DNA of 32,394 bases, the filler included, from an uncultured virus (IMG/VR IMGVR_UViG_3300016486_001479) (taxonomy: Duplodnaviria > Heunggongvirae > Uroviricota > Caudoviricetes). It is 3 parts of one record of this genome, joined end to end, with 100 filler letters (N's around TTAATTAATTAA, not from the genome) between each part and the next. Parts side by side here need not be neighbours in the genome. Positions count along the whole stretch, not along the records: positions 11,158 to 32,394 come from IMGVR_UViG_3300016486_001479; 2 more parts are not named here. One strand, written 5' to 3'. The notes below the pieces were generated by a model. The model had not been told where the DNA came from, ran no database searches, and saw only the letters and a list, made by a program, of their open reading frames with translations. The translations under genes were made by a program, and so were the position numbers. Positions 4,263 to 27,862 of the stretch are shown here, one piece after another. The stretch's first letter is position 1; each line of letters begins with the position of its first letter.

Positions 4263-4697
4263 ATGGCAAAAAGAAAGAAGGGCCGCAGGAGGGCGAGCAG
4301 GAAGAGTAAAGAAATAGTAGAGATTGATAAATTCAAACGCTATCAGACTCAGCTTCGAGTTCATCATTTGTACCCTGCAAAAAAAGACGGTTTTTGTGAC
4401 TGCGGATGCGGACAAGAGCTATCAGGGAGACAGAAACGGTGGGCAAGCACAAAATGTACAAACAAGGTCGTTAAAGAGTTTAAGATAATCAAAGGTGACA
4501 CTAAGGTTATCCGAGAGGAAATACAGAAACGAGACAAGGACGTTTGCGCCGAATGTAACGAGCCAGCTGATGTGTGGCAAGCAGACCATATCATTGAGGT
4601 TAGACATGGTGGTGGCGGATGCACACTAGATAACTTTCAAACCCTGTGCACTGTGTGTCATAAAAAGAAAACAAAGGAAAACTATAATAAGAAATGA
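4263..4697 (+). CDS. HNH endonuclease
   Basis: CDCGCG zinc motif; RDKDVCAEC...WQADHIIEVRHGGG...LDNFQTLCTVCHKKKT; start at ATG 4263; ATGA-type near-overlap with the next gene. Confidence 0.9.
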   Translation: MAKRKKGRRRASRKSKEIVEIDKFKRYQTQLRVHHLYPAKKDGFCDCGCGQELSGRQKRWASTKCTNKVVKEFKIIKGDTKVIREEIQKRDKDVCAECNEPADVWQADHIIEVRHGGGGCTLDNFQTLCTVCHKKKTKENYNKK

Positions 4698-5263
4698 GCG
4701 ACGATTTAAACGATATTGGAAGAAAACCTCAAGAAGTAGAGGACCATAATTCTACCCAGAAAGGTGTAAGAATGTTTTTTGGAAAGGAAGAGGCAGAGTT
4801 GTTTTCTTCTTTAGGTCGCGAAATCACAGAGGGATGGTTGCAGGAGAGTTTCTTGCTCTACAGGATAGACCTGCAGCAAACCTCTGTTCACCCTCTTTAT
4901 GGTGAAACCAAACATAAAGTTTATAAAGAGTCTGTTGAGGTGTTCGGACGGATAAATACTCAATCCGAGGATACAACGATGCATATTGATGGGGGACCAA
5001 TTAAACGTGGTCATGCCACAATGGAAGCTCATTTATACCTTGAACACTTACAAGAACTTGGTTTAGTTGTTCTAGAGAATGACCAAGATGTCGTTATGGA
5101 TTTAAAAGTGGGGGACTACCTGGAATTTAAAGGTCAGTTTTTCAAAATTCATGAGGATGGGTACGCTCAAATAAACAACCAAAACTCTTGGGCTGGTGAT
5201 AGAAGATTCTACATCACCATAAAAGCAAAAGAAGTCGATGAAGACCAATTTAACGCTAGATAA
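4694..5263 (+). CDS. Neck/head-closure protein (T4 gp14-like)
   Basis: LYRID..T.VHPLYGETKHKVY and LKVGDYLEFKGQFFKI patterns; position between the gp13-like and tail-completion genes. Confidence 0.6.
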   Translation: MSDDLNDIGRKPQEVEDHNSTQKGVRMFFGKEEAELFSSLGREITEGWLQESFLLYRIDLQQTSVHPLYGETKHKVYKESVEVFGRINTQSEDTTMHIDGGPIKRGHATMEAHLYLEHLQELGLVVLENDQDVVMDLKVGDYLEFKGQFFKIHEDGYAQINNQNSWAGDRRFYITIKAKEVDEDQFNAR

Positions 5264-5622
5264 TGAAGGTGCCAGAATACATATACAACGCTACGGTTGA
5301 AAACGTAGTAGACGGAGACACGATTGACTGCTTGGTTGATTTAGGGTTTAACACAACAAACAGAATCAGGTTTAGAATCAAAGATGACGAAGCTTATTTT
5401 GACACTCCTGAAACCTGGAGACCTAAAACAGAGGCGGAAGAAGCTCATGGTGAAGCAGCTAAGGCTAGAGCTAAAGAATTGCTGGAAGGAAAAAAAGTAG
5501 TGTTGAGGTCTGCAAAAAAAGGGAAGTATCGATACGTAGCCGAGGTGTTTATGGAAGACGGAAGCAGTTATACTGACTTAATGATTGCCGAAGGGTTTCA
5601 GAAGAAAGACTCTTACAAATAA
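5263..5622 (+). CDS. Thermonuclease (SNase-like) family nuclease
   Basis: YNATVENVVDGDTIDCLVDLGF..RIRF..DTPET..GEAAK..GKYRYVAEV. Confidence 0.88.
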   Translation: MKVPEYIYNATVENVVDGDTIDCLVDLGFNTTNRIRFRIKDDEAYFDTPETWRPKTEAEEAHGEAAKARAKELLEGKKVVLRSAKKGKYRYVAEVFMEDGSSYTDLMIAEGFQKKDSYK

Positions 5623-5713
5623 TTAATATTGATTCAATATATAATCCTTTTTTTTGAGTTATAACGCACATCCGCTTTCTTTTCGCAACCTATTTACAAG
5701 AAACACTTTGTAG

Positions 5714-7519
5714 ATGTCAATTCTGGACAATATTGGAGACAACTTAGATAGTCAGCACGAGAACCATAACTTCCTGCCTCAGAAAATTGAGTTAGAGGAT
5801 ATTGACCTTGGTGTAAAAAACTTTTTTGAAGGTCTCAACATCACGATGATGGACCAGAGTGGTCGTCAACGTCGCGTCCCTATTATTTGGCTTAATCAAG
5901 AGTTGTTTGCTCAGCGAAAGAATTACTGGGAAAGCTTGACTAATGAAAACGGAGAAGAAATTCAAAGACCGTTTATAGCAGTATCTAGAAAAGGAATTAA
6001 GCAGGGTACATCACCCAACAGAAGAACTATTCCATGGATGAAAAAATTTGGGTTCACAAGACCTAGGACTTTTGATGGAACCTTAATGGGGTACGACAAG
6101 TATATGGTTAGACAAGCTACTTGGGTAGATTGTGACTATGAAATTCGACTTGTCACCTCTTACATGGTAGACGTAAACGTTTTCTATCAAGAAATTCTCA
6201 GAGATGGCTTCTCAGATGGGCAAGGATATATGAATATTAATGGTCATCAGATTCGTTCAATCCTAGGAGAACCATCAGAAGACAATCAGGTATCAAGCAT
6301 TGATGATGAAAGAGTATTTCAGATTTCTGCTCCACTTGTGGTGCATGGAAAACTTTTTGACCCATCTGACCACGAAAAAAAGACCACAATCAATAAGGTT
6401 GTCGTTAAAATGTGTGAGGACGGCTCTGAGAATCAGGGGGTAGCAAAAACTTTTGGCGGTCAAAGCTCAGCTAGACCATTTAGAAATAGCTGCGACCCAG
6501 TTAATGTGTACAGTTACAATAATTTCTTATTATCTTCCGTCGCAGCTGGTCAGAGCTACATAATCTCAGCATCGACTGTATTAAATGTGTCTGGGACTAC
6601 TCTTGCAACGCTGGCTCCAGGGGAAATTTATGTTGTGCCTGCAGGCGCTAATGCGACTGTATTAGATTCTACAGGTGGTACACTAGCTTTAATTTCTGGC
6701 GGGCTAAGCGGAACAATTACAGATTCAACAATATTTAATTCCACTGGTGGAACAGTTGGGACAGTAACGGCACAAGGCGCGTTCCTTGCTCCTGATTCTA
6801 CTGTTTTCGATTACTCAGGAGGAACTCTTGCGAGCTTGGCGCCGAGTGGAAGATTTACAGTGGAAGCTGTTAATATTTTATGGTCATCAGGCGGAACAGT
6901 AGCAACACTAGGGCCTTCGAGTTCATACCCGTTAGAGGCTGTTACAGTTCTTAATCACACTGGTGGAACAGTTTTTAATGACGCCGAACAGGGTCAGACT
7001 AGAAGTTTGTCTGCGGGTGTAGTATTTAATTTTTCAGGAGGAACTCTTGCGAACTTGGCTCCAAACGGAGTGTTTACCGTAGCAGCTGCTACAGGTGTTG
7101 TATCAAACTCTGCTGGAGTTTTAAAACTCGATACTACGCTTGGTCCTGGTGATAGCTTTGCATATGTTGTCTCAGATTTAAAAATTTCAAATAACAGACC
7201 TAAACAGATATTCTCAATTTCTGGTGGAGGTTCCAGCTTTTTCTTAGATGATATATCATGGATTAATAGCGATGGAGCGTCTTTGTCATTTTTGCCCATC
7301 TATTATGATTTAGAAATGACTGCCCCTAATATTGACATAATCGACTCTTCAGGGATGTCTGCTAATACGGTTTTGTCTGGAACTGTTTATACAAATTTTT
7401 CAGGAATAGTTACAGTAGAAAACTCAAATAGCAGCTTTGTAACTGGGTATACTAGTTTTGGGACTTATCCATTATCAGACATAAGCATTTTAAATTCTTC
7501 TGGTGGAACAGTAGATACG
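5714..7519 (+). CDS. Tail completion/sheath-stabiliser-like N-terminal domain plus long repetitive Ser/Gly/Thr beta region (3' truncated at gap)
   Basis: First ~230 aa LPQKIELEDIDLGV..RVPII..RPFIAVSR..WVDCDYEI resemble gp15-like proteins; repeated [VI][LF]N[ST]SGGT[VL]ATL units follow; ORF runs into Ns at 7520. Confidence 0.6.
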
Positions 7520-7619
7520 NNNNNNNNNNNNNNNNNNNNNNNNNNNNNNNNNNNNNNNNNNNNTTAATTAATTAANNNNNNNNNNNNNNNNNNNNNNNNN
7601 NNNNNNNNNNNNNNNNNNN
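7520..7619. other. Artificial contig linker (44 N + TTAATTAATTAA + 44 N)
   Basis: Exactly 100 bp with a six-frame stop palindrome; identical structure at 11058-11157. Confidence 0.97.
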
Positions 7620-9058
7620 ATACAGCTAGATAGGGAAGCAGTTGAAAAAGTCGACGAAGAAGACCTTAAAGGTAGCCTGACGGGTAGCTTAGAATTCGTT
7701 TTATCGAAGGTTCTCATTGACTCAAAGAAAGGTCGTTTTTTGACAGAGATATAACCGATTTTCAAGGAGATGACATTATTGCTTCAGAGGATGCAACTGA
7801 TGTTCAAGAAAATAATATTATTTCTAGAGACGAAAAAAAGAGATAAGAGACAGAGTTTATTCGGTTATAAATGCAAATCTGGAAGAGATACAAAAAGAAA
7901 TTTCTGCCAAAAGATATGCGAGAACATATGGGAAACTAAATGCGCTCACAATTAGCAGAGTTTTAAACCAGATAGCATCAGACTCTGCTTATGTGATGGG
8001 AAGAATTTTAGAGGCTGGAATAAAAGGATATTCAGAATTCAAATTAACAAGAAAAGCAGCAGTCGAGCAGGATAATTTAATTGCTCGTCACTATCCTCTA
8101 CTGATTACAGAGGAGGGAGAGGAAGTTCCAGCAAAAGGAATATTTGGAATAGAAGAAGCGGGAAACGAGCTAGACTTTGTAAGAACATTTACCGCCGCAA
8201 TTACCCAAGGTATTCTAGAATTTCAGAATATTGCAAACATCGACACGACCGCTGTAAACGAAAACGTTGCACACCCGATAAGTGTTCTGGAACTATTTGC
8301 ACCAAAACCATATAATGGCTCAAGTTATACAAGCTTTGCTAAAGACATTTTAGGACGTTCAGCTATAGCGGCTTGGTTTACTAAAAACGACGTTATTACT
8401 GACCCAGGAGATGCAGACGAAGATAGAATCGACGCCCTTACTGATAAAGATATTCAGAACATATCAGCCAGTGACATACGAAGATTGCCAAATTCAGGCT
8501 CAGAATTACATAAGCAGCAACTAAAGAATTTTTGCACCTTCTGGACACGCCTTATCACTCCAGAAGGAACTGGTTTTAAGCTTCCAAATGGAGCATTAGA
8601 CACAAATGTGTTTGATTTAGAAGATTTTCTAAAAACTGATTCAGAAGATGCTGTGGATTCAGTTATTTTGAATTATGAGGTCGTAATTGAACATAATGGA
8701 CAAACAACTGAGATAGAAAAAATTACAACTCAAGAAGAGTTGAAAACTTTTGTAGCTGGGATAAACGACGACAAAAAGAGACCTGTAACGATGTCTGTAA
8801 AAGAAGCCTTAGAAGGCCTTTTCACGGGCGACTTGGCGTCTATAGACCAAGCCAGCATGGCTGGAGACCACTTTATAAATAACGGCGTGCCTTATTTTAC
8901 AGGAGTACACAAGAAGGAGAGAGATTTTCGAACTTTCTGGCTAGCTTATGAAAAAGACGATGCAAATAGAGCAAAAGAAGTCTTAATTGGGCAAGGCTAT
9001 GAAGCAGGTGATAACAACGATGCATCCGCCACCAATGAAAACTTTTATACATAGAGAA
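7620..9058 (+). CDS. Internal fragment of a very large structural protein, with frameshifts at homopolymers
   Basis: Reading can be carried from 7620 into the 7993 ORF by frame changes at T6 (7736-7741) and A7 (7833-7839); probably the same gene as 9599-10561 across the 9059-9598 gap. Confidence 0.5.
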
Positions 9059-9598
9059 NNNNNNNNNNNNNNNNNNNNNNNNNNNNNNNNNNNNNNNNNN
9101 NNNNNNNNNNNNNNNNNNNNNNNNNNNNNNNNNNNNNNNNNNNNNNNNNNNNNNNNNNNNNNNNNNNNNNNNNNNNNNNNNNNNNNNNNNNNNNNNNNNN
9201 NNNNNNNNNNNNNNNNNNNNNNNNNNNNNNNNNNNNNNNNNNNNNNNNNNNNNNNNNNNNNNNNNNNNNNNNNNNNNNNNNNNNNNNNNNNNNNNNNNNN
9301 NNNNNNNNNNNNNNNNNNNNNNNNNNNNNNNNNNNNNNNNNNNNNNNNNNNNNNNNNNNNNNNNNNNNNNNNNNNNNNNNNNNNNNNNNNNNNNNNNNNN
9401 NNNNNNNNNNNNNNNNNNNNNNNNNNNNNNNNNNNNNNNNNNNNNNNNNNNNNNNNNNNNNNNNNNNNNNNNNNNNNNNNNNNNNNNNNNNNNNNNNNNN
9501 NNNNNNNNNNNNNNNNNNNNNNNNNNNNNNNNNNNNNNNNNNNNNNNNNNNNNNNNNNNNNNNNNNNNNNNNNNNNNNNNNNNNNNNNNNNNNNNNNN

Positions 9599-10561
9599 CC
9601 AACTGATTGCTCGATGCTCAACGTGATGGCTGGGCGTTCGTACACATCCACAATTGATGTACTAGGAAATGCTCAAATATTTCCGATGCAATTTTTCTTT
9701 CTAAGAAATCTCCCAATGTTTGACGGACTGTATCAGATATTAAGTGTGAAGCACTCAATCACTCCGAACAATTTTGAGACGACTATGGAGGGAATGCGAA
9801 TGCGGTTTTATTCAGAGAACGACTACGGAGGAATATTTCCTATCACCATAGAGACCTTAGCTAAAACAGCAGAAGACAGAGGAGTTGAGTTAGAATATTT
9901 GAAGCCAGAAGGCGATAATTTAACAGCACCACAAAGCGAATATACAGGTGACGCAGACATCATTCCTATATCAGAATTACCTGGTAATAAAATCAAGTAT
10001 TTTCCTGTGTACACAAATAAATCTCGTTTTTGGACAGCTATCACTCCTGAAGAATTAGCGAATAAAATTAAGTCAAGTGTTACCGCTAATCTTGATATAA
10101 AAACAGCCATATTATTTACTGCCCTTAAGGAACAATACAATGGCGAAGTTATTGGTGGGTTTAACTATAACCATTTTGGCATTATGGCAGACATTGGTCG
10201 ATGGGGTAATAGTGAATTAATTAATGGAAGCATTTTATCAAGTGAAGGGAAAGGAGGGCAAGGTGTAAGAACAACTAAATATCGCGCTTTTGCTTCTTTC
10301 GAGAGCGATGAGAAAGGGTTGTTGTTTATGGCAAAAACTATAACTAGTAAAACGAAAAAACCTAGAACTGCACAACTTGAAAATGGAAAATCAGTCAGTT
10401 TCAAAGGCCCTATTACTAGAGATAATATAATGGATTATTATATTCTTAAATGGCTATCACCTGCTTTAACGAGTGTTGAACAGATTTTAGTTACAGATAG
10501 GGCTACGAATATACTTCGTTATCAGAAGTTGTGGGATAAAGCTCAAGGTTTATTGAACTAA
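9599..10561 (+). CDS. C-terminal part of a baseplate hub-like protein with a putative glucosaminidase/lysozyme-like domain
   Basis: IDVLGNAQIFPMQFFFLRNLPMFDGLYQILSVKHSITPNNFETTMEG resembles the gp27/VgrG-type terminal barrel; then KEQ..FNYNHFGIMA..YRAFASFESDEKG resembles GH73-like motifs; 5' end lies in the gap. Confidence 0.6.
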   Translation, partial: PTDCSMLNVMAGRSYTSTIDVLGNAQIFPMQFFFLRNLPMFDGLYQILSVKHSITPNNFETTMEGMRMRFYSENDYGGIFPITIETLAKTAEDRGVELEYLKPEGDNLTAPQSEYTGDADIIPISELPGNKIKYFPVYTNKSRFWTAITPEELANKIKSSVTANLDIKTAILFTALKEQYNGEVIGGFNYNHFGIMADIGRWGNSELINGSILSSEGKGGQGVRTTKYRAFASFESDEKGLLFMAKTITSKTKKPRTAQLENGKSVSFKGPITRDNIMDYYILKWLSPALTSVEQILVTDRATNILRYQKLWDKAQGLLN

Positions 10562-10713: not shown

Positions 10714-10851
10714 ATAAATTTAATCGTAGCGAAACAGATTTACCTTATAAAAAGCTTCCCTTGAACATTTTTTCCTTATAAAACAACTTGATTTTACAAG
10801 AGTTTGGGTTCACTTTTAATAAACATTTTATAATATTTAAAACCAAACGTC

Positions 10852-11057
10852 ATGGCCAAATATGGGCGAATAATTAAGAAAAAAATAGGAAGAGAAATGC
10901 ATGCTTTCATAGTTAATGGAGACACTATGTTCGAAATTGTCGAGGGAGCTAAAATGTTCTCATTTCCTGACGTGTATAAATGTGGAAATTGTGGGGGAGA
11001 CCACCTTGCGCTTAGTTCTCATATCACTAAAGAGGATGAATTGCAGTACACACACAT
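10852..11057 (+). CDS. Hypothetical protein with CxxC zinc-ribbon start (3' truncated)
   Basis: ATG in AT-rich context; KCGNCGG; runs into the linker. Confidence 0.7.
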
Positions 11058-11157
11058 NNNNNNNNNNNNNNNNNNNNNNNNNNNNNNNNNNNNNNNNNNN
11101 NTTAATTAATTAANNNNNNNNNNNNNNNNNNNNNNNNNNNNNNNNNNNNNNNNNNNN
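11058..11157. other. Artificial contig linker (44 N + TTAATTAATTAA + 44 N)
   Basis: Same 100-bp structure as 7520-7619. Confidence 0.97.
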
Positions 11158-11158
11158 G

Positions 11159-11923
11159 GTCGAATTGGGCACGTTTGCTCAAAAACAAGGAATATTCCCT
11201 GTGTTGATTATCACCGAGAACAAGTTCTCCATAGAGAGAGCTGAGATTATGGGGCTAATCACCGACAAGAACTATTGTCACATCCATAATGATGTAGATA
11301 CTATTGAGGAAGGTTGTGACATTGTTGATAGGTATATCAAAATGCAAGAGAATGGAGAATTCCCAATGGACATCGTGTTTATCTGGGATTCTATCGGCCA
11401 AGCACAGTCTAACGCTGAGCGTGAGGCTGTTGACGCAGGAAAAGGTAGTGGTGGAATGATGTCTACAGCAAGAGTAATTCACCAGAGAATAAAACGACAC
11501 ATCTGCAAAAAGATAAACAGTTCAAGAAGAGATGATTATCCTTACACAAACTCTATCTTCTTTGTAAATCACGCTTACACTAAGCCACCAACACCACCAG
11601 CAACGATGTCATCTTTGGCACCATACGGAGGAGAAGGTATTTGGTTAGCATCAACATTTGTTATACAAATGGGTGGAGTTCAATCAAGGTCATCTAAAGT
11701 AGAAGCTACAAAAGATGGAATAAAAGTATCCTTTGCAATTCGAAGCGCCATTCGACTCGTTAAAAATCACGTAAATAACGTATCTGCTAGGGGAAAAATT
11801 CTCTGCACAGACCACGGCTTCATTATGGACGAAAAGAAAGCAATTGACGATTACAAAGCGTCGACAAAAGACGGGTGGAGTCTTGAATATGATAACGATT
11901 GGGACCATGTTAGCTTGGACTAG
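11159..11923 (+). CDS. recA: RecA/UvsX-like recombinase (5' truncated)
   Basis: IITENKF, Walker B IVFIWDSIG, FFVNH, PYGGEGIWLAS and VKNHV; Walker A lost in the gap. Confidence 0.8.
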   Translation, partial: VELGTFAQKQGIFPVLIITENKFSIERAEIMGLITDKNYCHIHNDVDTIEEGCDIVDRYIKMQENGEFPMDIVFIWDSIGQAQSNAEREAVDAGKGSGGMMSTARVIHQRIKRHICKKINSSRRDDYPYTNSIFFVNHAYTKPPTPPATMSSLAPYGGEGIWLASTFVIQMGGVQSRSSKVEATKDGIKVSFAIRSAIRLVKNHVNNVSARGKILCTDHGFIMDEKKAIDDYKASTKDGWSLEYDNDWDHVSLD

Positions 11924-16075: not shown

Positions 16076-17065
16076 ATGAGTGAAAAGACGCTTGATAGGA
16101 TAGAGCCTATTTTACAAGAAAATCCAAACCGCTTTGTGATTTTTCCGATTCAACACAATGATATTTGGCAACACTATAAACAACAACAGGCGTGTATATG
16201 GACGGCTGAAGAAATTGATTTAGAGGCCGACCTTGTAGATTGGAATGATAAATTAAACGATAATGAGCGTCATTTCATTAAGCATGTTCTTGCTTTTTTT
16301 GCAGCTAGTGATGGAATTGTAAACGAGAATTTGGCAGAGAACTTCCTTTCAGAGGTTCAATATCCAGAGGCTAAGTTCTTCTACGGATTCCAAATAGCAA
16401 TGGAGAACGTACACTCGGAAACATATTCCCTATTAATCGATACCTACGTTAAAGACGGCAACGAGAAAGACAAGCTCTTTAGAGCGATAGAAACTCTTGA
16501 CTGTGTTCGCAAGAAAGCTGAATGGGCTTTAAAATGGATTGATGAAGGGACATTTGCTCAAAGATTAGTTGCGTTTGCAGCAGTCGAGGGCATTTTCTTT
16601 TCAGGAAGCTTTTGCTCTATTTTTTGGTTAAAAGACCGAGGATTAATGCCAGGGTTAGCTTTTTCAAACGAGCTAATTTCCAGAGATGAAGGATTGCACT
16701 GTGATTTTGCTGTACACATTTTCAACAAACACTTAGTGAACAAGATTTCTAAAGATGAAATCATTGAAATCATTAAAGATGCTGTCAATATAGAGAAAGA
16801 ATTCGTGACAGATGCATTACCAGTGAGTCTTTTAGGGATGAATGCTCTTCAGATGCAAAGTTATATTGAGTTTGTGGCAGACCGATTACTTGTCGAGTTC
16901 AACTGTCCAAAACAATATAATGCAATCAATCCGTTTGACTTCATGGAAAAGATTTCTGTGGACACAAAAACAAATTTCTTCGAAGGGCGAGTCGGTGAAT
17001 ACGCAAAGCCTGGAGTTGCCAGTGGGAAATCCTCCAGGACATTCAGCAAAGACGCAGATTTTTAA
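16076..17065 (+). CDS. nrdB: Ribonucleotide reductase class Ia beta subunit
   Basis: [48 protein letters not shown] and KTNFFE. Confidence 0.98.
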
Positions 17066-17149: not shown

Positions 17150-19366
17150 ATGCAAGTTACTAAACGCAACGGCTCTAAGGAAGAAGTTAGGTTTGATAAG
17201 ATAGCTGCTAGAATTAAAAAGCAATGCTATGATTTATCGGAGGCAGTTAATTATTCAGAAGTAGCCCAAAAAGTTATTCAAGGAATATTCGACGGTGTAT
17301 CAACAACGCAATTAGATGAATTAGCAGCTCAGAAGGCAGCCGTTCTTGTTACAACACATCCAGATTACTCAAAGTTGGCAGCCAGAATAGCCATTACTTC
17401 ACTTCACAAGGAAACAAAGAAATTGTTTTCTCAGACAATAAAAGACCTCTACGAGTATGTCGACCCAATCACAAAAGCACCAGCACCGCTTATTAGCGAG
17501 GAAGCCTATGCGGTGGTGAAAAAAAACAGTGCAAGACTTAATGGGGCAATCATTCAAGACCGAGATTTTCAGCTTGACTATTTTGGATTCATGACAATGA
17601 AACGCTCGTATCTTCTTAAGACTCATGGAACACCAGCAGAAAGGCCTCAACATCTTTTTATGCGCGTTGCAGTAGGTATTCACATGGATGATATTGACAA
17701 AGCTATAGAGACTTATGATTTATTATCCATGAAGTATTTTACTCATGCAACACCTACATTGTTTAATGCAGGGACTCCAAAACCGCAAATGTCTTCCTGT
17801 TTCCTGTTAACGATGAAAGATGATTCTATTGATGGAATATATGACACTTTAAAGCAGTGTGCATTGATTTCACAATCAGCTGGAGGGATAGGGTTGAGCA
17901 TTCACAACATAAGAGCCAAAGGCTCTTATATTAAAGGAACCAACGGAACCTCTAATGGAATTGTTCCAATGCTTAGAAACTTTAACGACACAGCTCGTTA
18001 TGTTGACCAGGGTGGAGGAAAACGAAAAGGTTCTTTTGCAATCTACTTAGAGCCTTGGCATGCAGACATACGCGAGTTTCTTAATTTGAAAAAGAACACA
18101 GGAAAAGAAGAGATGCGTGCGAGAGATTTGTTTTACGCGATGTGGATTCCAGACTTGTTTATGAAACGAGTTGATGAAGGCGCAAGCTGGACTTTAATGG
18201 ACCCTAACGAGTGCCCTGGGCTTTCAGACTGCTATGGAGATGACTTTGAGAAGTTGTACACCAAATATGAGAGGCAAGGCAAAGGGCGTGAGACAATCCC
18301 TGCTCAAGACATTTGGTTCAAGATTCTTGAATCTCAAATTGAAACAGGAACTCCATACATGCTTTACAAGGATGCCGCTAACCATAAATCTAATCAAAAG
18401 CACTTGGGAACAATCAAGTCCTCTAATCTCTGTACAGAAATTATGGAGTACACTTCTCCAGATGAAGTAGCTGTTTGTAATCTTGCATCTATTGCGTTGC
18501 CAATGTATTTGAAGCAAACAAACACAGCTAAGACCCCAAGCAAGAAAGTGTACGAGTTTGATTTTGATAAGCTATATGAGGTTACAAAGGTGGTCACAAA
18601 AAACCTTAACAAGGTTATCGACCGAAATTTCTACCCAGTTGTGGAGGCTAAGAAATCAAACCTACGTCACAGACCAATTGGCATTGGTGTTCAAGGTTTA
18701 GCCGATGTGTTCGCTAAGATGCACGTGGCATTCGATTCGGAGGTAGCAAAGCAACTTAATAGGGAAATCTTCGAAATGATTTACTTCGCTTCTATGGAGG
18801 CCTCTATGGAGGAAGCTATGAAAGATGGAGCATATGAAACGTTCCCAGGCTCAGACCTAAGCAAAGGCATTTTCCAGTTTGATTACTGGGAAGAGTCTCA
18901 GCTCTCACCGAATCTAAATTTGGACTGGAATGGTCTAAAGGACAAAGTGAAAGAGTTTGGAGCTAGAAACTCTCTGCTGTTGGCTCCAATGCCTACAGCA
19001 AGTTGTCAAGTAATTGACACTGAGTTCTTTAGCCAAGGAAAAGTGAATAATTTCAAATCTATTTTAGAACAAAGTGGAATTGATTGGAAAACTATTGAGT
19101 CGGTTGATGCTCCACATTGGATTACTCTTAAAGAGTCAGTTATTGTTGACACGATGAATGGAGAGGTTGAAACTGATAAGATGTACTACAATGGGCATAA
19201 GCAGGTCTACCATATAGAAATGGAAGATGGGTCTACAATGGAGGCTACGGGAAATCATAGATTTCTTGTGAGTCGAACTACAGGAGATGAGTGGGTTTAT
19301 GTAAATGAGTTAAAAGAAGACGATGATATTCTAACTATTAAATGTGAAGAACTAATTGAAAACTAA
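17150..19366 (+). CDS. nrdA: Ribonucleotide reductase alpha, N-terminal part (618 aa) fused to split intein N-fragment (120 aa)
   Basis: ATP cone [21 protein letters not shown] and VCNLAS; NrdA similarity stops at LLAPMPTAS, followed by CQVIDTEF (block A) and ATGNHRFL (block B). Confidence 0.95.
19004..19363 (+). mobile_element. Split intein N-fragment
   Basis: Starts with Cys immediately after PTAS; TxNH block [14 protein letters not shown] end typical of N-inteins; acidic tail, then stop. Confidence 0.9.
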
Positions 19367-19392
19367 GTTGCGCCTGGCATGACAGCCTAAAG

Positions 19393-19424
19393 TTCTGTGC
19401 TATTTATTAATAAATAGCACAGAA
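19393..19424. promoter_or_regulatory. Perfect 32-bp palindrome containing the late-promoter motif and covering the endonuclease start region
   Basis: TTCTGTGCTATTTATTAATAAATAGCACAGAA is its own reverse complement; its last base is the A of ATG 19424. Confidence 0.85.
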
Positions 19425-19789
19425 TGGATAGGTTTAAAATTAATAATACAGAGATAAGAACTTTAAAGGGGGTATCTGATTTTTTCAGAAGAAACTCAAA
19501 CATTGAAATGGACAAATTAATATTTGACAACATCAAGGCAGGGTATGCATTAATTAAAATGCATGAGTCCTTAGATGTGAGTCACTTTATTTCTGCTTTT
19601 GAAGTAATTCAAAGCAAAGAAATGCCTGGCCATAAAGTAAGGGATAACATAAAAGAGTTGTCTGAGAGTTTTGATGGAGAAAGGTTTAAAAAATATGTAA
19701 AGTATAGATTAACCAATAAGACAGATTCTAACTCAGATAAGTTTTACCATTTAAAATGGGGTTTAGAGCTAGGTAATATTAAAAAGAAA
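19424..19789 (+). pseudogene. 5' part of a free-standing homing endonuclease, interrupted at about 19790
   Basis: Ends in KFYHLKWGLELG, the same repeat type as FIERHGEKKG/YIQQHGEDKG of the 3' part; same reading frame as the 20612 ORF; ORF runs on into the insert to a stop at 19894. Confidence 0.65.
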
Positions 19790-19874
19790 ATGCCTACAGC
19801 AGCAGGGTTACTCCTTATAAAGTGGAGTACTAGGTTTTTCCGTATACTTAGATTAATAAGAGACGCTATATTCT

Positions 19875-20474
19875 ATGAAAGGATTCAATTATAAAAAGGC
19901 AGTTCAATCTCTTGCCTTTCTAGCAAATCGCTTAGGAGGCGATAGTGGATTGAATAAAATGAAAGCCATTAAATTAATTTGGCTTTCGGATAGATTACAT
20001 CTCAATCGTTATGGTCGCACTATATCTGGAGATGTTTATTTTGCGCTACCATTCGGTCCAGTTCCATCTACAACAAGAGACCTGATGGAAGGATATGCGA
20101 ACTTAAGTGAAATAGAGAAATCATACTCCGAACTATATATATCATCAATAGACAAACATCACTATAAAGCTATAGAAGCGGGAGATAATTGCGTTTTCTC
20201 TCTGTCTGAGATTCAAGTATTACAAACAATTCTTGAGAATTATGGTTCTTGGGACCATTTCAAGTTGTCAGAATTCTCACACAAATTTCCTGAATGGAGG
20301 AAATATGAAGCAGCACTAAAGGGTCCAGGTCCATCTCGCTATGAAATTAGTTTGGAAACTTTTTTCGAGCAAGTGGAAAATGACCAAAGTGGATTATTCT
20401 CGGAATCAGAAGAGTATAAAGAACTTTCTAAGGAGATTTTTAGAGATAATGAAAAGCTAGCGCAGCTACTATAG
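19875..20474 (+). CDS. Panacea (DUF4065/SocA-like) antitoxin
   Basis: LNKMKAIKLIWLSDRLHLNRYGRTISGDVYFALPFGPVPS and LSEFSHKFPEW are typical DUF4065 signatures. Confidence 0.88.
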   Translation: MKGFNYKKAVQSLAFLANRLGGDSGLNKMKAIKLIWLSDRLHLNRYGRTISGDVYFALPFGPVPSTTRDLMEGYANLSEIEKSYSELYISSIDKHHYKAIEAGDNCVFSLSEIQVLQTILENYGSWDHFKLSEFSHKFPEWRKYEAALKGPGPSRYEISLETFFEQVENDQSGLFSESEEYKELSKEIFRDNEKLAQLL

Positions 20475-20478
20475 CTAG

Positions 20479-20661
20479 ATGCAATCAACCGAACTTCTGC
20501 TTCAAGGGTTAGCCGAAAAAAAGGTGTACTACTTCGCAAGTCAATCCATTAACTCCGCTGAACCGCATTATTGGATTGTAGTAAAGGTTAGTGAAAATCA
20601 AATAATCCATTTTGCGTGTTGTACTAGCCAATTTAAAAAAAGAAAGCTCTTCATGGGTTGA
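20479..20661 (+). pseudogene. Truncated putative cognate toxin (possibly PemK/MazF-like N-terminus)
   Basis: Starts 4 nt after the antitoxin stop; PHYWIVV..FACCTSQ resembles the PemK-like RPxxVV..xPxTS strand pattern; stops at 60 aa where endonuclease sequence resumes. Confidence 0.5.
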
Positions 20662-21514
20662 GAAGGGCTTTTCAGAGAAAGAAGCACTGGTTGAGATTGA
20701 TAATTTCAAATCTTCCAAAGCAACGTCTGAGAAAGGTTTTATAGAAAGACATGGAGAAAAGAAAGGGTTGAGCTTGTTTAAAGAGTTTCAAGATTCTTCA
20801 AAGCACACGAAAGAAAAGTATATTCAACAGCACGGAGAAGATAAAGGTAAAGATATGTGGGATAAGTACGTTGATGCAAAAAAAGAAACAAGCGTATTCA
20901 CTTCTAAACACTGGATTAATAAAGGATATAGCAAGGAGGATGCGGAAGAGATGAGAAAAAAGTTTCATACAGAAAATTTAAACACCTCTTCAGTGGATTA
21001 TTGGATATCAAAAGGCTTGTCAAAGAAAGAATCGATTAACAAAGTGGAGCAGATTTTTTTAAAGAAACAAGTACATTTCGGAAGAGCTTCTAAAGAGAGT
21101 CTTGTGTTTTTTCAACCGCTGTTTGATAAGTTTTCAAGCGAACTCGAAGTACTTGTGGGTATAGATGAGAGTAAGGAGTTAGGTATTTACGACGAATACT
21201 CCGCTTGCATGAGGTTTTATGATTTTTCTATTCCTGAGCGAAAAATCATAATTGAGTATCATGGCGAAAGATATCATCCAAACCCAGAAAGGCTAAGTAA
21301 GGAGGAGTGGAAAAATTGGGAATCTTGGAGATTAAAAGGCTCAGGTATTAATAGAGTTAAAATGTCTGCAGATGAAATACACAACATAGACCAGAGAAAG
21401 AAGGACTTAGCTTTAGAGAAAGGGTATAAATATTTAGAGCTTTGGAGCAGCTCAACTAAAGAGGTAAACAACGAGAAAGTAGAAGACTTTCTTCTTAAAA
21501 ACAATATAAAATGA
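20654..21514 (+). pseudogene. 3' part of a Vsr-like/EDxHD-type homing endonuclease
   Basis: Repeats WVEKGFSEKEA / WINKGYSKEDA / WISKGLSKKES, then FYDFSIPERKIIIEYHGERYH..DQRKKDLALEKGYKYLELW; no convincing start of its own; ATGA overlap with the C-intein gene. Confidence 0.75.
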
Positions 21515-21615
21515 AAGTAAAAAAAATAACACCAAGCAAAGTAAAGCCTACATGGGATTTAGCGGTACCAGGAGAGGAGCATTACATAATGGGGAACGGA
21601 TGCGTAAGTCATAAC
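21511..21615 (+). mobile_element. Split intein C-fragment
   Basis: Basic N-terminus; block F TWDLAV..HY; block G VSHN; Thr as the +1 residue. Confidence 0.92.
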
Positions 21616-22161
21616 ACAGCACAAATCCTAGGAAACAACGAATGTTTTGAGCCTTTTACTTCAAACATTTACGAGCGTAAAGTTCTTTCTGGAAACTTTG
21701 TATTGGTGAACCCTCACTTGGTTGAAAGATTAATCGAATTGAAAATCTGGGACTTTAATCTTAGAAATAAAATCATCGCTAACAGAGGCTCTGTCCAAGG
21801 AATCGATGAGATTCCAGAAGATATCCAGGATGTTTACAAAACTGTTTGGGAGATTAAGCAGAAAAATATTCTTGACATGGCAGCAGATAGAGGTGCATTT
21901 ATTTGTCAAAGTCAGTCTATGAATGTGTTTATTGACGAACCAGATTTTCAAAAATTAACCTCAATGCACTTCTATGGATGGAACAAAGGACTTAAGACTG
22001 GAATGTATTACTTACGGACAAAGCCTGCTGCAGATGCTATTCAGTTTACTGTGACAAAAAAAGCGCAAGAAGAACAATTAGACGAACCAACAGCTGATTA
22101 CGATGACCTACCTGCTAGACCAGAAGAAAGCGATTTTGATTGCTTTGGCTGTGGAGCATAA
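21511..22161 (+). CDS. nrdA: Split intein C-fragment (35 aa) fused to RNR alpha C-terminal part (181 aa)
   Basis: [24 protein letters not shown], then [32 protein letters not shown] and terminal CFGCGA. Confidence 0.95.
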
Positions 22162-22172
22162 TTTTGATGTAT

Positions 22173-22204
22173 AAAAAGACCTTCCTTAGTGGGGGTCTTT
22201 TTTT
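22173..22204 (+). terminator. Intrinsic terminator after nrdA-C
   Basis: AAAAAGACCTTC / GGGGGTCTTTTTTT stem with G-U pairs and a U-tract. Confidence 0.8.
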
Positions 22205-25575: not shown

Positions 25576-26146
25576 ATGCAAAAAGAAAGAGAAAGTAGCT
25601 ATTATAAGGAATCAGTTTCCGTAAAAAGCTATTACAAAGACATTAAAAAGATAGAAGTCCTTAGTGGGGATGACCAAGTTAAACTGGCTGTCAAGGCTAA
25701 GGCTGGAGACGAGAAAGCATTTCATGACTTAACAAAGACTAATTTGAGATTTGTTATTTCTGTGGCAAAAGAATATCTATACAGCGGACTTCCTCTGGAG
25801 GATTTAATTTCAGAGGGTAATATCGGCCTTATGGAAGCTGTTAGCAGGTTTGATGAGACAAAGGGTTTTAAGTTTATTTCCTACGCCGTATGGTGGATTC
25901 GCCACGCACTTATAAAAGCGGTAAACGACCACTCTGGGAACATCAGGCTCCCTGTAAATCGAATCAACTCCATCAACAAGATTGTAAAAACAAAAGAAAA
26001 GCTTTACCAACGTTTAGGTCGAGAGCCTTCTGATGAAGAAATCTTAGCCGAGATAGATGAAATTACAGAAAGCGATATTAAAAGCTTTAACATCAATGGA
26101 AACTTCGAAGTTTCTATTGATGACCAGATAAAATCTGACTCACAAA
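25576..26146 (+). CDS. rpoD: RpoD/SigA-family sigma70 factor lacking region 1.1 (3' truncated at gap)
   Basis: NLRFVISVAKEY, DLISEGNIGLMEAVSRFD, GFKFISYAVWWIR, IRLPVN and LGREPS. Confidence 0.92.
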
Positions 26147-27030
26147 NNNNNNNNNNNNNNNNNNNNNNNNNNNNNNNNNNNNNNNNNNNNNNNNNNNNNN
26201 NNNNNNNNNNNNNNNNNNNNNNNNNNNNNNNNNNNNNNNNNNNNNNNNNNNNNNNNNNNNNNNNNNNNNNNNNNNNNNNNNNNNNNNNNNNNNNNNNNNN
26301 NNNNNNNNNNNNNNNNNNNNNNNNNNNNNNNNNNNNNNNNNNNNNNNNNNNNNNNNNNNNNNNNNNNNNNNNNNNNNNNNNNNNNNNNNNNNNNNNNNNN
26401 NNNNNNNNNNNNNNNNNNNNNNNNNNNNNNNNNNNNNNNNNNNNNNNNNNNNNNNNNNNNNNNNNNNNNNNNNNNNNNNNNNNNNNNNNNNNNNNNNNNN
26501 NNNNNNNNNNNNNNNNNNNNNNNNNNNNNNNNNNNNNNNNNNNNNNNNNNNNNNNNNNNNNNNNNNNNNNNNNNNNNNNNNNNNNNNNNNNNNNNNNNNN
26601 NNNNNNNNNNNNNNNNNNNNNNNNNNNNNNNNNNNNNNNNNNNNNNNNNNNNNNNNNNNNNNNNNNNNNNNNNNNNNNNNNNNNNNNNNNNNNNNNNNNN
26701 NNNNNNNNNNNNNNNNNNNNNNNNNNNNNNNNNNNNNNNNNNNNNNNNNNNNNNNNNNNNNNNNNNNNNNNNNNNNNNNNNNNNNNNNNNNNNNNNNNNN
26801 NNNNNNNNNNNNNNNNNNNNNNNNNNNNNNNNNNNNNNNNNNNNNNNNNNNNNNNNNNNNNNNNNNNNNNNNNNNNNNNNNNNNNNNNNNNNNNNNNNNN
26901 NNNTTGATTTTCAAGAAGAAACAGTTGAATTATGGAGTCCTCTTGATTTAGAAGCGAGGAGAAAAATGATTGAAGAATCATGGTTATAATTCCAAAAAAA
27001 GTTATACTTTTGGATTATAAATCAAAAATC

Positions 27031-27862
27031 ATGGATACATTGAATTTACAGCTCACAAAGTCCATCGTATTCATTAAGGCGCATACGACAGGGTTAAAGC
27101 CGAATTTGGATAGGATTGTACAACTCACAATCACTCGATACAACCCAGACGGCACACAAAAGACAGGGACAAGACTAATTAACCCCGAAATGCCCATCCC
27201 AGAGGAGGCATCAAGTAGGAACGGCATCACCGATGATATAGTGAGCAGTCAACCCACATTTTTCAGCATAGCTCAAAATCTTCACCGCTTTATTGGCGAT
27301 GCAGACATCGCGGGGGTTCAATGTTGAATTCGACCTCAACTTTTTAATGGAAGAGTTTGCAAGAGCAGGCCTTGCGTTTTCTTGTTCAGACCGAAACATC
27401 GTAGACCTACAGTCTATGTATCACCAGATATCTCCAAGAGACTTCATCCAGGCATCAGCGCAATTTGCGAATCAAGATTTCATGAGAGGAGCTCCGATTG
27501 GTAGCGAGGCCCACACCGTGAACTATGTCAAAATCCTTAATGGGATGATTGATAAACATCAAGGTCAAATAATTACAGACAAAAACGGAGTTGAAAAGTC
27601 ATTCAACAACAACACATCATCTATTTCTGAGACATTCGGAAAAGGAAAAGGCGCAGTTGATATGAAAGGGCAGCTTGTAAAAGACGACAGCGGAAAAATC
27701 AACCTGAACTTTGGAAAGTATAAAGGAAGACCATTGGATGAAATCGTTACAACAGATATGGGGTATATCACGTGGATGATAAATTCAGAAAAAACTCCTA
27801 GAGACACAAAAAACATCATTGAGAGTTTCATTAAAAAAATGAACACTCCTCAACCTCAATAA
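27031..27862 (+). CDS. DEDDh/DnaQ-like exonuclease fold with degenerate catalytic motifs and C-terminal FGKYKG domain; frameshift at G5 27312-27316
   Basis: TTGL..DRIVQL..LINPEMPIPEEAS..NGITD; IAG|FNVEFDL joins two ORFs if one G is removed; LNFGKYKG..GYITWM. Confidence 0.8.

What the first reader, a model, noticed from the sequence alone, without database searches (positions are those of the whole stretch)
19790..20653. Nested cargo: intact Panacea antitoxin plus amputated toxin inside the homing endonuclease inside split nrdA
Seen: the endonuclease halves (19424-~19789 and ~20654-21514) share repeat types and reading frame. They are separated by ~0.86 kb containing an inverted repeat (TACTCC/GGAGTA, 19809-19829), a complete DUF4065 gene and only the first ~57 codons of its downstream partner. 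No transposase or terminal repeats are visible, and both junctions lie near similar A-rich strings (ATTAAAAAGAAA and TTTAAAAAAAGAAA). Known: Panacea antitoxins pair with diverse toxins, and TA systems can act in phage defence. Inference: the space between intein halves tolerates cargo, and the phage kept an orphan antitoxin as possible counter-defence while losing both toxin and endonuclease. An amplification or assembly chimera is a real alternative in this draft.
Basis: partly seen in the sequence, partly recalled or inferred. Interest (0 to 1): 0.8.

Follow-up and report, generated by a model that had tools for sequence, protein, structure and literature searches.

The report
Phage stole a host antitoxin gene
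A large salt-lake phage carries an 823-base piece copied letter for letter from a bacterial defence island, holding a whole antitoxin gene and only a stump of its toxin, dropped into a dispensable homing-endonuclease gene: it looks like a fresh theft of the antidote to a host suicide system.

Summary
The nested insert is real, but its left edge is at 19831/19832, not 19790. A near-identical virus record (G001) joins window 19830/31 directly to 20654 and so has an intact 422-aa Vsr-like homing endonuclease. The insert is 823 nt. It has no target duplication, terminal repeats or transposase.

It holds 43 nt of leader, a complete SocA/Panacea antitoxin gene (PF13274, E 7e-23) and the first 58 codons of its partner. 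The donor was found: metagenome locus L085 carries the same 824 nt at 100% identity. There the partner is whole (145 aa, MazF-like fold), and the pair lies between a Zorya II system and AbiE.

Contigs of four public salt-lake runs were laid. They show the empty site in three runs, the left junction with insert in two, and the donor context in two. An assembly chimera is therefore unlikely.

Best reading: a recent illegitimate-recombination capture of a host antitoxin, probably kept as counter-defence. The structure is well supported (about 0.9). The function is inferred (about 0.5). The split-intein plus free-standing endonuclease arrangement in nrdA is a known kind (Dassa 2009).

The parts
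16076..17065 (+). nrdB (ribonucleotide reductase small subunit), context
   Evidence: phrog_86, E 1.4e-60
17150..19003 (+). nrdA N-extein (ATP-cone, all-alpha and barrel domains), ending ..APMPTAS
   Evidence: PF02867 E 2.7e-162, PF00317, PF03477. Boundary found by script.
19004..19366 (+). N-terminal split-intein half (120 aa, starts with Cys, holds the TGNH block) plus stop codon
   Evidence: PF14890 Intein_splicing, E 3.5e-6, below the gathering score. Coordinates.
19392..19425 (+). 15-bp RNA hairpin that ends in the endonuclease start codon. It is the kind of 5' hairpin described for fractured-gene endonucleases.
   Evidence: Fold -28.2 kcal/mol, z -5.4, 0 of 200 shuffles as good. Dassa 2009 passages.
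19424..19831 (+). 5' part of the Vsr-like homing endonuclease gene (codons 1-136 of the 422-aa form). In this window it is also frameshifted at the A-run 19781-19785 (A5 instead of A6).
   Evidence: G001 and P0123 give the intact frame. The A insertion behind 19780 is in the contigs of X3, X5 and X16.
19832..20654 (+). 823-nt insert of bacterial origin (equally 19831-20653, because one T is shared). It is a clean insertion with no loss or duplication of phage bases.
   Evidence: G001 joint. Joint 'skips 823' in three runs. 824/824 identity to L085 8031-8854. Junction alignment.
19875..20474 (+). Intact SocA/Panacea (DUF4065) antitoxin gene, 199 aa, identical to the donor's
   Evidence: PF13274 E 7.2e-23. 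Identical ORF in L085 8211-8810 minus strand. 260 homologues, best 55-56% identity, named ones Bacteroidota.
20479..20653 (+). Stump of the partner toxin gene: the first 58 of 145 codons (strands b1-b3 of a MazF-like barrel). It lacks the family's invariant C87 and S129 and the nearly invariant N88. The ORF runs on into endonuclease sequence to 20661.
   Evidence: Full gene in L085 7769-8206. Alignment A2. Model and MazF matches.
20654..21514 (+). 3' part of the homing endonuclease gene (codons 137-422: helical repeats plus the Vsr-like catalytic domain). An accidental TTG at 20612 inside the insert opens a 300-aa ORF.
   Evidence: Catalytic domain matches I-Bth0305I at Z 9.5 and Vsr at Z 9.3.
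21511..21615 (+). C-terminal split-intein half (35 aa, ends ..VSHN). Its ATG overlaps the endonuclease stop (ATGA).
21616..22161 (+). nrdA C-extein, starts TAQILGNNE
   Evidence: PF02867 positions 392-523, E 6.6e-44

Best explanation
SHOWN. The window is the replication region of a large phage from salt-lake metagenomes. Its nrdA is a 'fractured gene': N-extein plus N-intein, then a free-standing Vsr-like homing endonuclease gene, then C-intein plus C-extein. In one lineage of this phage, 823 nt of foreign DNA were inserted cleanly between codons 136 and 137 of the endonuclease gene.

The piece is identical to part of a two-gene operon in another replicon of the same community. That replicon is most likely a Bacteroidota genomic island, where the operon lies between a Zorya type II system and AbiE. 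The piece holds 43 nt of leader, the whole SocA/Panacea antitoxin gene, and 58 of the 145 codons of a MazF-fold toxin.

INFERRED, mechanism of capture. During infection of the donor cell, a host DNA fragment was joined into a break in the phage genome, or was copied in by two template switches. This was illegitimate recombination: one junction has 1 nt of overlap and an imperfect T(A/G)GGTT match, and the other has none.

INFERRED, why it survived there. The endonuclease is dispensable for the phage. A fragment with a whole toxin would have been harmful, so only an antitoxin-only capture is tolerated.

INFERRED, function. The antitoxin is made from the nrdA/endonuclease transcript. It binds the host's toxin directly (type II neutralisation) when infection would otherwise free that toxin. 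This blocks a toxin-antitoxin abortive-infection defence. After the insertion the endonuclease gene began to decay: there is a 1-nt A-run frameshift in this window and further frameshifted pieces in other contigs.

CONFIDENCE. About 0.9 that this is a real, recent host-to-phage insertion. About 0.5 that it serves counter-defence. The figure given in the confidence field is for the whole chain.
For: Empty site. G001 shares 89% of the window's words. It joins 19830/31 to 20654 with flanks 100% (3047 nt) and 99.8% identical, giving one 422-aa ORF. That ORF aligns end to end with relatives of 425-436 aa (P0160 3-417, P0161 1-412, P0164 2-420).

Alleles in the protein collection:
- Intact form P0123: 24 contigs.
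- N-part ending ..KVEY at the junction-made TAG (P0124): 6 contigs, longest 446,956.
- The window's own frameshifted N-part (P0129): 2 contigs.
- The 300-aa ORF that starts in the insert and crosses the right junction (P0121, P0122): 4+2 contigs, plus P0126 on 1.

Runs (4 of 24 listed runs laid, contigs only):
- Joint 19830 to 20654 in X3, X5 and X16, at depth 31, 18 and 7.
- Left junction with insert bridged in X3 (59-nt record, depth 8.7) and X16 (166 nt, depth 3.4).
- Insert in a different context in X3 and X5.

Donor. L085 is 824/824 identical and holds SocA plus the 145-aa partner. Neighbours are ZorA2 5e-128, ZorB2 3e-83, ZorE2 3e-84, AbiEi 2e-51 and AbiEii 1e-99. G+C is 38.6% against the window's 38.4%.

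Direction of transfer. 57 of 80 bacterial SocA loci have the partner directly downstream. Of those 57 partner ORFs, 49 are complete at 141-176 aa, 6 are shorter and 2 run off the contig.

Toxin fold. AF2 pLDDT 95.5. Foldseek top hits are all MazF (9ikd_B E 1.5e-4, TM to target 0.71; 30 matches at E<=0.001).

Pairing. The complex model supports binding but does not show it.
- Score 0.88, best of 3 controls 0.00.
- That mark was reached by 116 of 157 solved complexes and 2 of 215 mismatched pairs. These counts hold only roughly, because my own alignments were used.
- The runs agree in at least 88% of contacts, and the partner's pLDDT is at least 84.
- MazF-antitoxin complexes are solved, so part of the pass may reflect likeness.

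Precedent. Phages use orphan or copied antitoxins against TA defences. PhiTE-F took ToxI from the toxIN plasmid by recombination (PMC3475682, passages). Other cases are AdfN (PMC11825919, passages) and AdfM (PMC13309987, passages).
Against: - No expression data: no RNA run was listed, and no promoter-like site on the + strand upstream of the antitoxin gene was found.
- The antitoxin is 100% identical to the donor's, so there has been no time for selection to leave a mark. A neutral passenger in a dispensable gene would look the same.
- The insertion allele is the minority where both alleles are seen (X3 8.7 against 31.3; X16 3.4 against 7.0). It was not seen in X5, although the donor is there.
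- No contig of the four laid runs bridges the right junction. That junction rests on the window itself and on the ORFs.
- The pair is not a known defence system: PADLOC has no model hit for either protein.
- Only 6 of 29 homologous loci tested had a PADLOC hit (E<=1e-15) within 3 kb, and there was no background control.
- That the donor is the phage's host, or even a bacterial chromosome, is inferred from gene content only. The record is not held.
- The contig counts may include the same data assembled more than once.
Confidence: 0.5

Rival explanations
1. Neutral passenger. A random piece of host DNA was joined into a break in a gene the phage does not need. It persists by hitch-hiking in one clonal lineage and does nothing for the phage.
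For: - The endonuclease gene is dispensable and is already decaying (A5 frameshift; frameshifted pieces P0125-P0128).
- The insert is 100% identical to the donor, so it is very young.
- It is the minority allele in X3 and X16.
- No expression evidence exists.
- The window and G001 differ by several other large indels, so such genomes turn over DNA freely.
Against: - A random 823-nt piece of a genome of several Mb would rarely hold exactly one complete antitoxin gene with its leader and a disabled toxin. This is my estimate, not computed.
- The source lies between two defence systems.
- The allele is on contigs from several sources and in runs of 2017 and 2019.
Confidence: 0.35
2. Assembly or amplification chimera between the phage and a co-sequenced bacterium.
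For: - The insert is identical to another replicon of the same samples.
- No laid contig bridges the right junction.
- The data are Logan contigs, not raw reads.
Against: - Phage and donor share only 1 nt (right) and 5 of 6 nt (left) at the ends, far below any assembler's word length.
- The left junction is bridged in two runs of different samples and studies.
- ORFs crossing the left junction are on 6+2 contigs, and those crossing the right junction on 4+2+1 contigs.
- The insert-bearing allele exists in two forms (A6 and A5), which suggests later change.
Confidence: 0.04
3. The captured antitoxin works for the phage in another way, not against the donor's toxin. It could act as a protease adaptor like Caulobacter SocA (recalled), as a regulator, or against a rival phage's or a prophage's toxin.
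For: - Panacea antitoxins pair with very many toxin types and can be evolved to neutralise non-cognate toxins (PMC8832971, passages).
- A viral contig (L001) carries a complete pair of the same two families.
Against: - The protein is identical to the cognate antitoxin of the donor's toxin.
- The complex model places it on that toxin's conserved residues (score 0.88 against 0.00 for the best control).
- Nothing in the window suggests another target.
Confidence: 0.06

Closest known systems
Fractured genes: split inteins with a free-standing Vsr-like homing endonuclease (Dassa et al. 2009, PMC2677866; passages read)
   Same: - The order is N-extein plus N-intein, free-standing endonuclease gene, C-intein plus C-extein, in a phage nrdA.
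- The endonuclease has a Vsr-like catalytic domain.
- A hairpin stands just before its start codon.
- Loss of the endonuclease is foreseen in their model.
   Different: - The intein sits at ..PTAS|TAQI.. (residue 618/619), 192 residues after the NLCTE thiyl-radical site. In the paper all seven NrdA loci are directly N-terminal to that site.
- Here the endonuclease is inactivated by inserted host DNA, which the passages I read do not describe.
PhiTE-F escape phage that took the ToxI antitoxin from the toxIN plasmid by recombination (Blower et al. 2012, PMC3475682; abstract and passages)
   Same: A virulent phage copies the antitoxin, but not the toxin, of a host abortive-infection TA system into its own genome.
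   Different: - That case was a laboratory selection, the antitoxin was an RNA, and the recombination used pre-existing pseudo-ToxI homology.
- Here it is a natural population, a protein antitoxin and no homology. The benefit is not shown.
Phage orphan antitoxins AdfN (PMC11825919, passages), AdfM (PMC13309987, passages) and T4 Dmd (only cited in PMC8832971's reference list)
   Same: A stand-alone antitoxin or antitoxin-like gene in a lytic or jumbo phage counters a TA defence.
   Different: - Those are old, diverged acquisitions whose origin is inferred from trees. AdfN and AdfM are enzymes that reverse the damage.
- This one is a binding-type antitoxin, identical to its source, with donor and empty site still present.
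PanAT (Panacea antitoxin / toxin) type II systems (Kurata et al. 2022, PMC8832971; Ernits et al. 2023, PMC10440598; passages)
   Same: - The donor operon has a DUF4065 antitoxin upstream of a small toxin.
- mRNA-interferase-type toxins are among the known partners.
- DUF4065 is reported in 17 phages.
- Neutralisation through C-terminal helices is described, and the model here uses residues 181-199.
   Different: - The partner matches no Pfam family and only has the MazF fold.
- In the phage the pair is not a TA system at all, because the toxin is cut at residue 58.

Membership tests
SocA/Panacea (DUF4065, PF13274) antitoxin | Panacea domain above Pfam's gathering score | tested here: met
   82.1 bits against a cut-off of 25.7, E 7.2e-23, profile positions 3-112 of 113
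SocA/Panacea (DUF4065, PF13274) antitoxin | Encoded next to a conserved small toxin gene (two-gene operon) | tested here: met
   Met in the donor (L085) and in 57 of 80 bacterial loci. In the phage only 58 of 145 codons of the partner are present.
SocA/Panacea (DUF4065, PF13274) antitoxin | Binds and neutralises its toxin | tested here: inconclusive
   The complex model supports binding but does not show it: score 0.88, best of 3 controls 0.00. The mark was reached by 116 of 157 solved and 2 of 215 mismatched pairs. At least 88% of contacts are shared and the partner's pLDDT is at least 84. Neutralisation needs an experiment.
MazF/PemK-type toxin (for the donor's 145-aa partner) | MazF/CcdB-like barrel fold | tested here: met
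   Model pLDDT 95.5. Top Foldseek hits are all MazF: E 1.5e-4, TM to target 0.66-0.72, 10-18% identity.
MazF/PemK-type toxin (for the donor's 145-aa partner) | Match to the Pfam or NCBIfam sequence family | tested here: not met
   No MazF/PemK family was listed for 7 partners at E<=1 in Pfam. In NCBIfam the only E<=0.001 match for the 3 partners was a sub-threshold one to NF045891 (19.5-27.2 bits against a cut-off of 55). So it has the fold but is not filed as a family member.
MazF/PemK-type toxin (for the donor's 145-aa partner) | Toxicity / ribonuclease activity | not testable with these tools
Invariant columns are H29, C87 and S129.
Vsr-like (I-Bth0305I type) homing endonuclease | Vsr-like catalytic domain | tested here: met
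   The model of the intact 422-aa form has pLDDT 90.7. VIA-align gives 3r3p_A Z 9.5, rmsd 2.7, 95 of 97 aligned, and 1cw0_A Z 9.3, rmsd 3.6, 113 aligned. Foldseek on the whole protein was weak (E 0.15-0.7, prob 0.87-0.96). tblastn finds phage genes annotated as VSR endonuclease at E 3e-9 to 3e-8. Invariant columns are D326, E337, H344 and K385.
Vsr-like (I-Bth0305I type) homing endonuclease | Site-specific cleavage of the endonuclease-free allele (homing) | not testable with these tools
In this window the gene is broken anyway.
Fractured gene with split intein (Dassa 2009) | Intein halves at the ends of two ORFs of one host enzyme, with a free-standing endonuclease ORF between | tested here: met
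   The N-half (19004-19363) starts with Cys and has the TGNH block. The C-half (21511-21615) ends HN and is followed by Thr. The extein halves are PF02867 positions 1-395 and 392-523.
Fractured gene with split intein (Dassa 2009) | RNA hairpin just upstream of the endonuclease start codon | tested here: met
   Hairpin at 19392-19425, z -5.4. Described in 15 of 16 loci in the paper.
Transposon / insertion sequence / integron-like cassette (for the insert) | Target-site duplication, terminal inverted or direct repeats, transposase or integrase | tested here: not met
   Junctions are clean with a 1-nt overlap. None of 6 direct and 15 inverted repeat families has copies at both ends. The whole 823 nt is accounted for by leader, antitoxin and toxin stump.
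Phage anti-defence gene (orphan antitoxin) | Expressed during infection and restores phage growth on hosts carrying the cognate toxin | not testable with these tools
   Only circumstantial: an intact ORF identical to the cognate antitoxin, with its source in a defence island.

The most novel reading that the evidence does not exclude
A natural 'caught in the act' theft of an antidote. A lytic, probably jumbo, phage has just copied the antitoxin of a host abortive-infection TA module out of a Zorya/AbiE defence island. The donor locus, the insertion allele and the empty-site allele all still coexist at 100% identity in one lake community. Decaying homing-endonuclease genes inside fractured genes would then serve as safe landing pads for such anti-defence cargo. 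The same observation names the phage's host lineage. It also marks an uncharacterised PanA/MazF-fold pair as an anti-phage system.
Probability: 0.4. Interest if true: 0.75.

Novelty: new variant of a known kind. Interest (0 to 1): 0.62.

Why it matters
Phage counter-defence genes are often thought to derive from host antitoxins, but the transfers seen so far are old and inferred from trees, or were made in the laboratory. Here the donor, the recipient and the unaltered allele are all at hand, with base-exact junctions.

This makes several things directly testable:
- How the DNA was captured (end joining with next to no homology).
- Why only the antitoxin survives.
- Whether the allele spreads with the host's defence genotype.

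It also gives a host link for an uncultured large phage. It nominates a widespread, unannotated Panacea/MazF-fold pair of Bacteroidota as a defence system. And it shows one way a homing endonuclease gene dies after fixation. If the insert is only a passenger, it is still a clean example of illegitimate host-DNA capture in a phage.

Tried and rejected
- blastn of 19300-21700 against 50,697 phage records: no match.
- Peptide-pattern scan of viral contigs with the endonuclease C-part: nothing. With the antitoxin: one distant locus, L001.
- The window's own assembly is not held. The record behind L085 is not held, so the donor's taxon could not be read from its genome. A neighbour's named relatives are Hymenobacter, Flammeovirga, Ekhidna and Bacteroidales, at low coverage.
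- The donor-flank 30-mer is absent from viral contigs and from G001 with up to 2 mismatches.
- Exact look-up of the 145-aa toxin: not in the collection.
- Pfam and NCBIfam give no family for the toxin. PADLOC gives none for toxin or antitoxin.
- Sequence searches of the PDB with the endonuclease found nothing relevant. The single-sequence search had 0 hits. The profile search gave one chance hit at E 0.47.
- No RNA holder was listed among the 24 runs, so nothing can be said on expression.
- The consensus promoter scan found no + strand site before the antitoxin, and overall 4 sites against 6.9 expected. The host's promoter type is probably not covered.
- In the four laid runs no contig bridges the right junction, and X20 covers neither junction.
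- Defence neighbourhood of homologous pairs: 6 of 29 loci had a PADLOC hit within 3 kb, with no control. This is too weak to use either way.
- Earlier notes of this scan: none, by place or by sequence.
- Rejected: a transposon or cassette (no repeats, no duplication, no transposase).
- Rejected: the A-rich strings as recombination sites (not at the junctions).
- Rejected: deletion in G001 of an ancestral insert. The empty allele restores a full-length frame that aligns end to end with distant relatives.
Full report
WHAT IS IN THE WINDOW. ORF listing and Pfam give this order:
- nrdB, 16076-17065.
- nrdA N-part, 17150-19366. Its last 120 residues are an N-intein half: it starts CQVIDTEFF at 19004 and has a TGNH block. 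Intein_splicing scores E 3.5e-6, below the gathering score.
- A 156-aa ORF, 19424-19894.
- A 199-aa SocA_Panacea gene, 19875-20474 (E 7.2e-23).
- A 60-aa ORF, 20479-20661.
- A 300-aa ORF, 20612-21514.
- A 216-aa ORF, 21511-22161. It begins with a 35-residue C-intein half (..VSHN) followed by TAQILGNNE and the end of the RNR barrel (profile 392-523).

PHROGs hits in the rest of the window show a phage replication module: primase/helicase, helicase, polymerase pieces, sigma factor and HNH endonucleases. The nearest held record, G001, is an IMG/VR virus record of 141 kb.

THE EMPTY SITE AND THE TRUE BOUNDARIES. G001 matches window 19000-19836 and 20654-22200 as adjacent pieces. In locus coordinates the right flank is 3047/3047 identical. 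The left flank is 99.8% identical over 1506 nt.

Reading G001 across the joint gives one ORF of 422 aa..GNIKKENAYSSRVTPYKVEY|WVEKGFSEKEALVEI... The window therefore carries 823 extra bases, 19832-20654. This is equally 19831-20653, because a single T is shared.

The inverted repeat at 19809-19829 and the first A-rich string are endonuclease sequence. The second A-rich string is toxin coding sequence that also stands in the donor.

The window also has A5 where G001 has A6 (19781-19785). That frameshift, together with an insert of 3n+1 bases, is why the two halves seem to share a frame.

IS THE UNINTERRUPTED FORM ANCESTRAL? The 422-aa protein P0123 is on 24 contigs. In a search of 1.84 billion representatives it has 1475 relatives at E<=0.001. 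The closest full-length ones (425-436 aa, 37-43% identical) align from residue 1-3 to 412-420. The insertion point lies inside a repeat that fits the family consensus Y...KG.S..EA...I.

An AF2 model of the intact form (pLDDT 90.7) has a helical-repeat N-region and a C-terminal domain (282-421). By VIA-align the best matches of that domain are:
- the I-Bth0305I catalytic domain (3r3p_A, Z 9.5, rmsd 2.7, 95 of 97 residues);
- E. coli Vsr (1cw0_A, Z 9.3, rmsd 3.6, 113 residues).

Foldseek with the whole protein was weak, and sequence searches of the PDB found nothing. tblastn finds phage genes annotated as VSR endonucleases at E 3e-9 to 3e-8.

Together with the 15-bp hairpin that ends in the start codon (z -5.4), this is the fractured-gene arrangement of Dassa et al. 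2009 (PMC2677866, passages). The intein site differs..PTAS|TAQI.., 192 residues after NLCTE. The paper's seven NrdA loci are at the thiyl-radical site.

WHAT THE INSERT IS. The antitoxin has 260 homologues at E<=0.001. The best are 55-56% identical, and all named ones in the top rows are Bacteroidota.

In 80 bacterial loci fetched with an alignment of 20 of them, the 58-residue translation of 20479-20652 finds a conserved ORF directly downstream of the antitoxin in 57 loci (E<=0.001). Of these 57 ORFs:
- 49 are complete at 141-176 aa;
- 6 are complete but short (67-118 aa);
- 2 run off the contig.

The family has no Pfam match (7 members) and only a sub-threshold NCBIfam match. Forty-four members align with invariant H29, C87 and S129. 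The AF2 model of the donor's protein (pLDDT 95.5) matches MazF toxins and nothing else at the top of the list (E 1.5e-4, TM to target about 0.7). The phage copy stops after strand b3 and lacks C87, N88 and S129, so it cannot be a working toxin.

THE DONOR. Laying the contigs of four of the 24 listed salt-lake runs on 19300-21200 showed three things:
- The empty-site joint ('skips 823', 19830 to 20654) is in X3, X5 and X16.
- Short contigs bridge the left junction of the insertion allele in X3 (19802-19860, depth 8.7) and X16 (19802-19967, depth 3.4).
- In X3 and X5, contigs of 3.1-3.4 kb hold 19831-20654 without a single difference and then run on into unrelated sequence on both sides.

One of those loose ends, used as a pattern, found one metagenome locus, L085. 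L085 holds the 824 nt at 100% identity. There the antitoxin gene is followed by the whole 145-aa toxin gene.

Its neighbours are ZorA2/ZorB2/ZorE2 on one side, AbiEi/AbiEii on the other, and two integrase remnants. The neighbour proteins occur on contigs of up to 160 kb. A MORN-repeat lipoprotein among them has named relatives only in Bacteroidota.

G001 has neither the insert nor the donor flank. In X3 and X5 the donor contigs have about half to two-thirds of the phage contigs' depth. The donor is therefore a different replicon, most likely a bacterial genomic island rich in defence genes. That it is the phage's host is inferred from the identity of the 824 nt and the equal G+C (38.6 against 38.4%).

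HOW IT GOT THERE. Three-way comparison of the junctions shows:
- no phage base lost or duplicated;
- one shared T;
- an imperfect six-base match (TAGGTT in the donor, TGGGTT in the phage) at the left end;
- nothing beyond the T at the right end.

No repeat family has copies at both ends, and there is no room for a transposase. This is the signature of end joining or template switching with minimal homology. It is not transposition, homing or homologous recombination.

The piece starts 43 nt before the antitoxin's start codon. Otherwise transcription must come from the nrdA/endonuclease operon.

IS IT AN ARTEFACT? The chimera reading still fails on these counts:
- Too little sequence is shared at the ends for an assembler to join them.
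- The left junction is seen in two runs from different samples, studies and years.
- ORFs that can exist only with the insert are on several contigs from several sources. The N-part ended by the junction-made TAG (P0124) is on 6 contigs and P0129 on 2. The ORF that starts in the insert and crosses the right junction is on 4+2+1 contigs.
- The insertion allele occurs with A6 and with A5.

Weak points remain. The laid data are contigs. The right junction was not bridged in them. The contig counts may not be independent.

WHAT IT DOES. Shown: an intact antitoxin gene identical to the cognate antitoxin of a MazF-fold toxin that sits in a defence island; a disabled toxin; and a broken endonuclease.

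The complex model supports, but does not show, direct binding of the antitoxin to the full toxin:
- Score 0.88, best of 3 controls 0.00.
- The mark was reached by 116 of 157 solved complexes and 2 of 215 mismatched pairs, roughly, since my own alignments were used.
- At least 88% of contacts are shared between runs, and the partner's pLDDT is at least 84.
- Contacts run from antitoxin residues 105-111 and 181-199 to toxin residues 29, 88-90 and 129-135.

This fits what Ernits et al. 2023 describe for Panacea antitoxins that neutralise through C-terminal helices (PMC10440598, passages).

Inferred: the phage supplies the antitoxin during infection and so keeps the host's toxin bound. This is how T4 Dmd, the PhiTE pseudo-ToxI/ToxI hijack, AdfN and AdfM work against other TA defences.

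Against this:
- There are no expression data.
- There is no sign of selection. None is possible at 100% identity.
- The allele is in the minority where both are seen.
- The defence neighbourhood of homologous pairs is modest (6 of 29 loci, no control).

I put the counter-defence reading at about 0.5, the neutral passenger at about 0.35, and the rest at about 0.1.

NOVELTY. These are known: fractured genes with Vsr-like endonucleases, Panacea antitoxins in phages (17 phages in Kurata et al. 2022), and orphan antitoxins as phage counter-defence. Full-text searches for orphan antitoxins in phages and for Panacea with anti-defence returned 24 listed papers. Judged by their titles and the starts of their abstracts, none describes a Panacea antitoxin captured by a phage or host DNA inserted into a fractured-gene endonuclease (and also 43, 54, 55). 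Supplements were not read.

What is new here is the state of the evidence: a natural capture so recent that donor, insertion allele and empty site coexist unchanged. It is a new variant of a known kind.

Noticed in passing
window 7519-7620, 9056-9600, 11057-11158, 26146-26904: Apart from the insert, the window and the near-identical record G001 differ by several large indels. G001 has about 38.8 kb between window 7519 and 7620, about 1.5 kb where the window has 0.54 kb, 0.94 kb where the window has 0.1 kb, and 0.49 kb where the window has 0.76 kb. These may be mobile elements, strain differences or assembly joins.
   Followed up: no
window 4221-4697, 5263-5622, 11165-11923, 26980-27327: More endonuclease genes (HNH, E 8e-12; another endonuclease, E 2e-24). 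There are also short ORFs that match only parts of UvsX-like recombinase and DNA polymerase profiles. Other genes of this phage may also be in pieces.
   Followed up: no
L085 2-2754 and 9097-10811: The donor island holds a Zorya type II system (ZorA2, ZorB2, ZorE2) and an AbiEi/AbiEii pair, with two integrase remnants (5569-5814, 10813-11070). Unannotated genes lie between them, including a 165-aa and a 211-aa ORF without any family.
   Followed up: partly
L001 3884-4901: A viral contig of 72.7 kb carries a complete pair of the same two families: a 198-aa Panacea antitoxin and a 139-aa partner with the PHYF, TTSQ and DCN motifs. Viruses or prophages can therefore also hold the whole module.
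   Followed up: no
L013, L014, L027, L047, L048, L064 (partner ORFs): In 6 of 55 bacterial loci where the partner ORF ends within the contig, it is only 67-118 aa instead of 141-176 aa. The toxin therefore decays in bacteria too, leaving orphan antitoxins.
   Followed up: no
window 21511-21514: The endonuclease stop and the start of the C-intein/nrdA-C gene overlap (ATGA), which suggests translational coupling. The insertion may therefore also affect how much NrdA C-part is made.
   Followed up: no
window 19373: C in the window and T in the contigs of X3, X5 and X16. G001 also has one substitution in this left flank that I did not place. The site lies in the spacer between the N-intein stop and the hairpin.
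   Followed up: no
window 20516 and 20956: The 2010 run X20 has 1-nt deletions in low-depth contigs, one inside the toxin stump and one in the endonuclease C-part. These could be real variants or errors at depth about 3.
   Followed up: no
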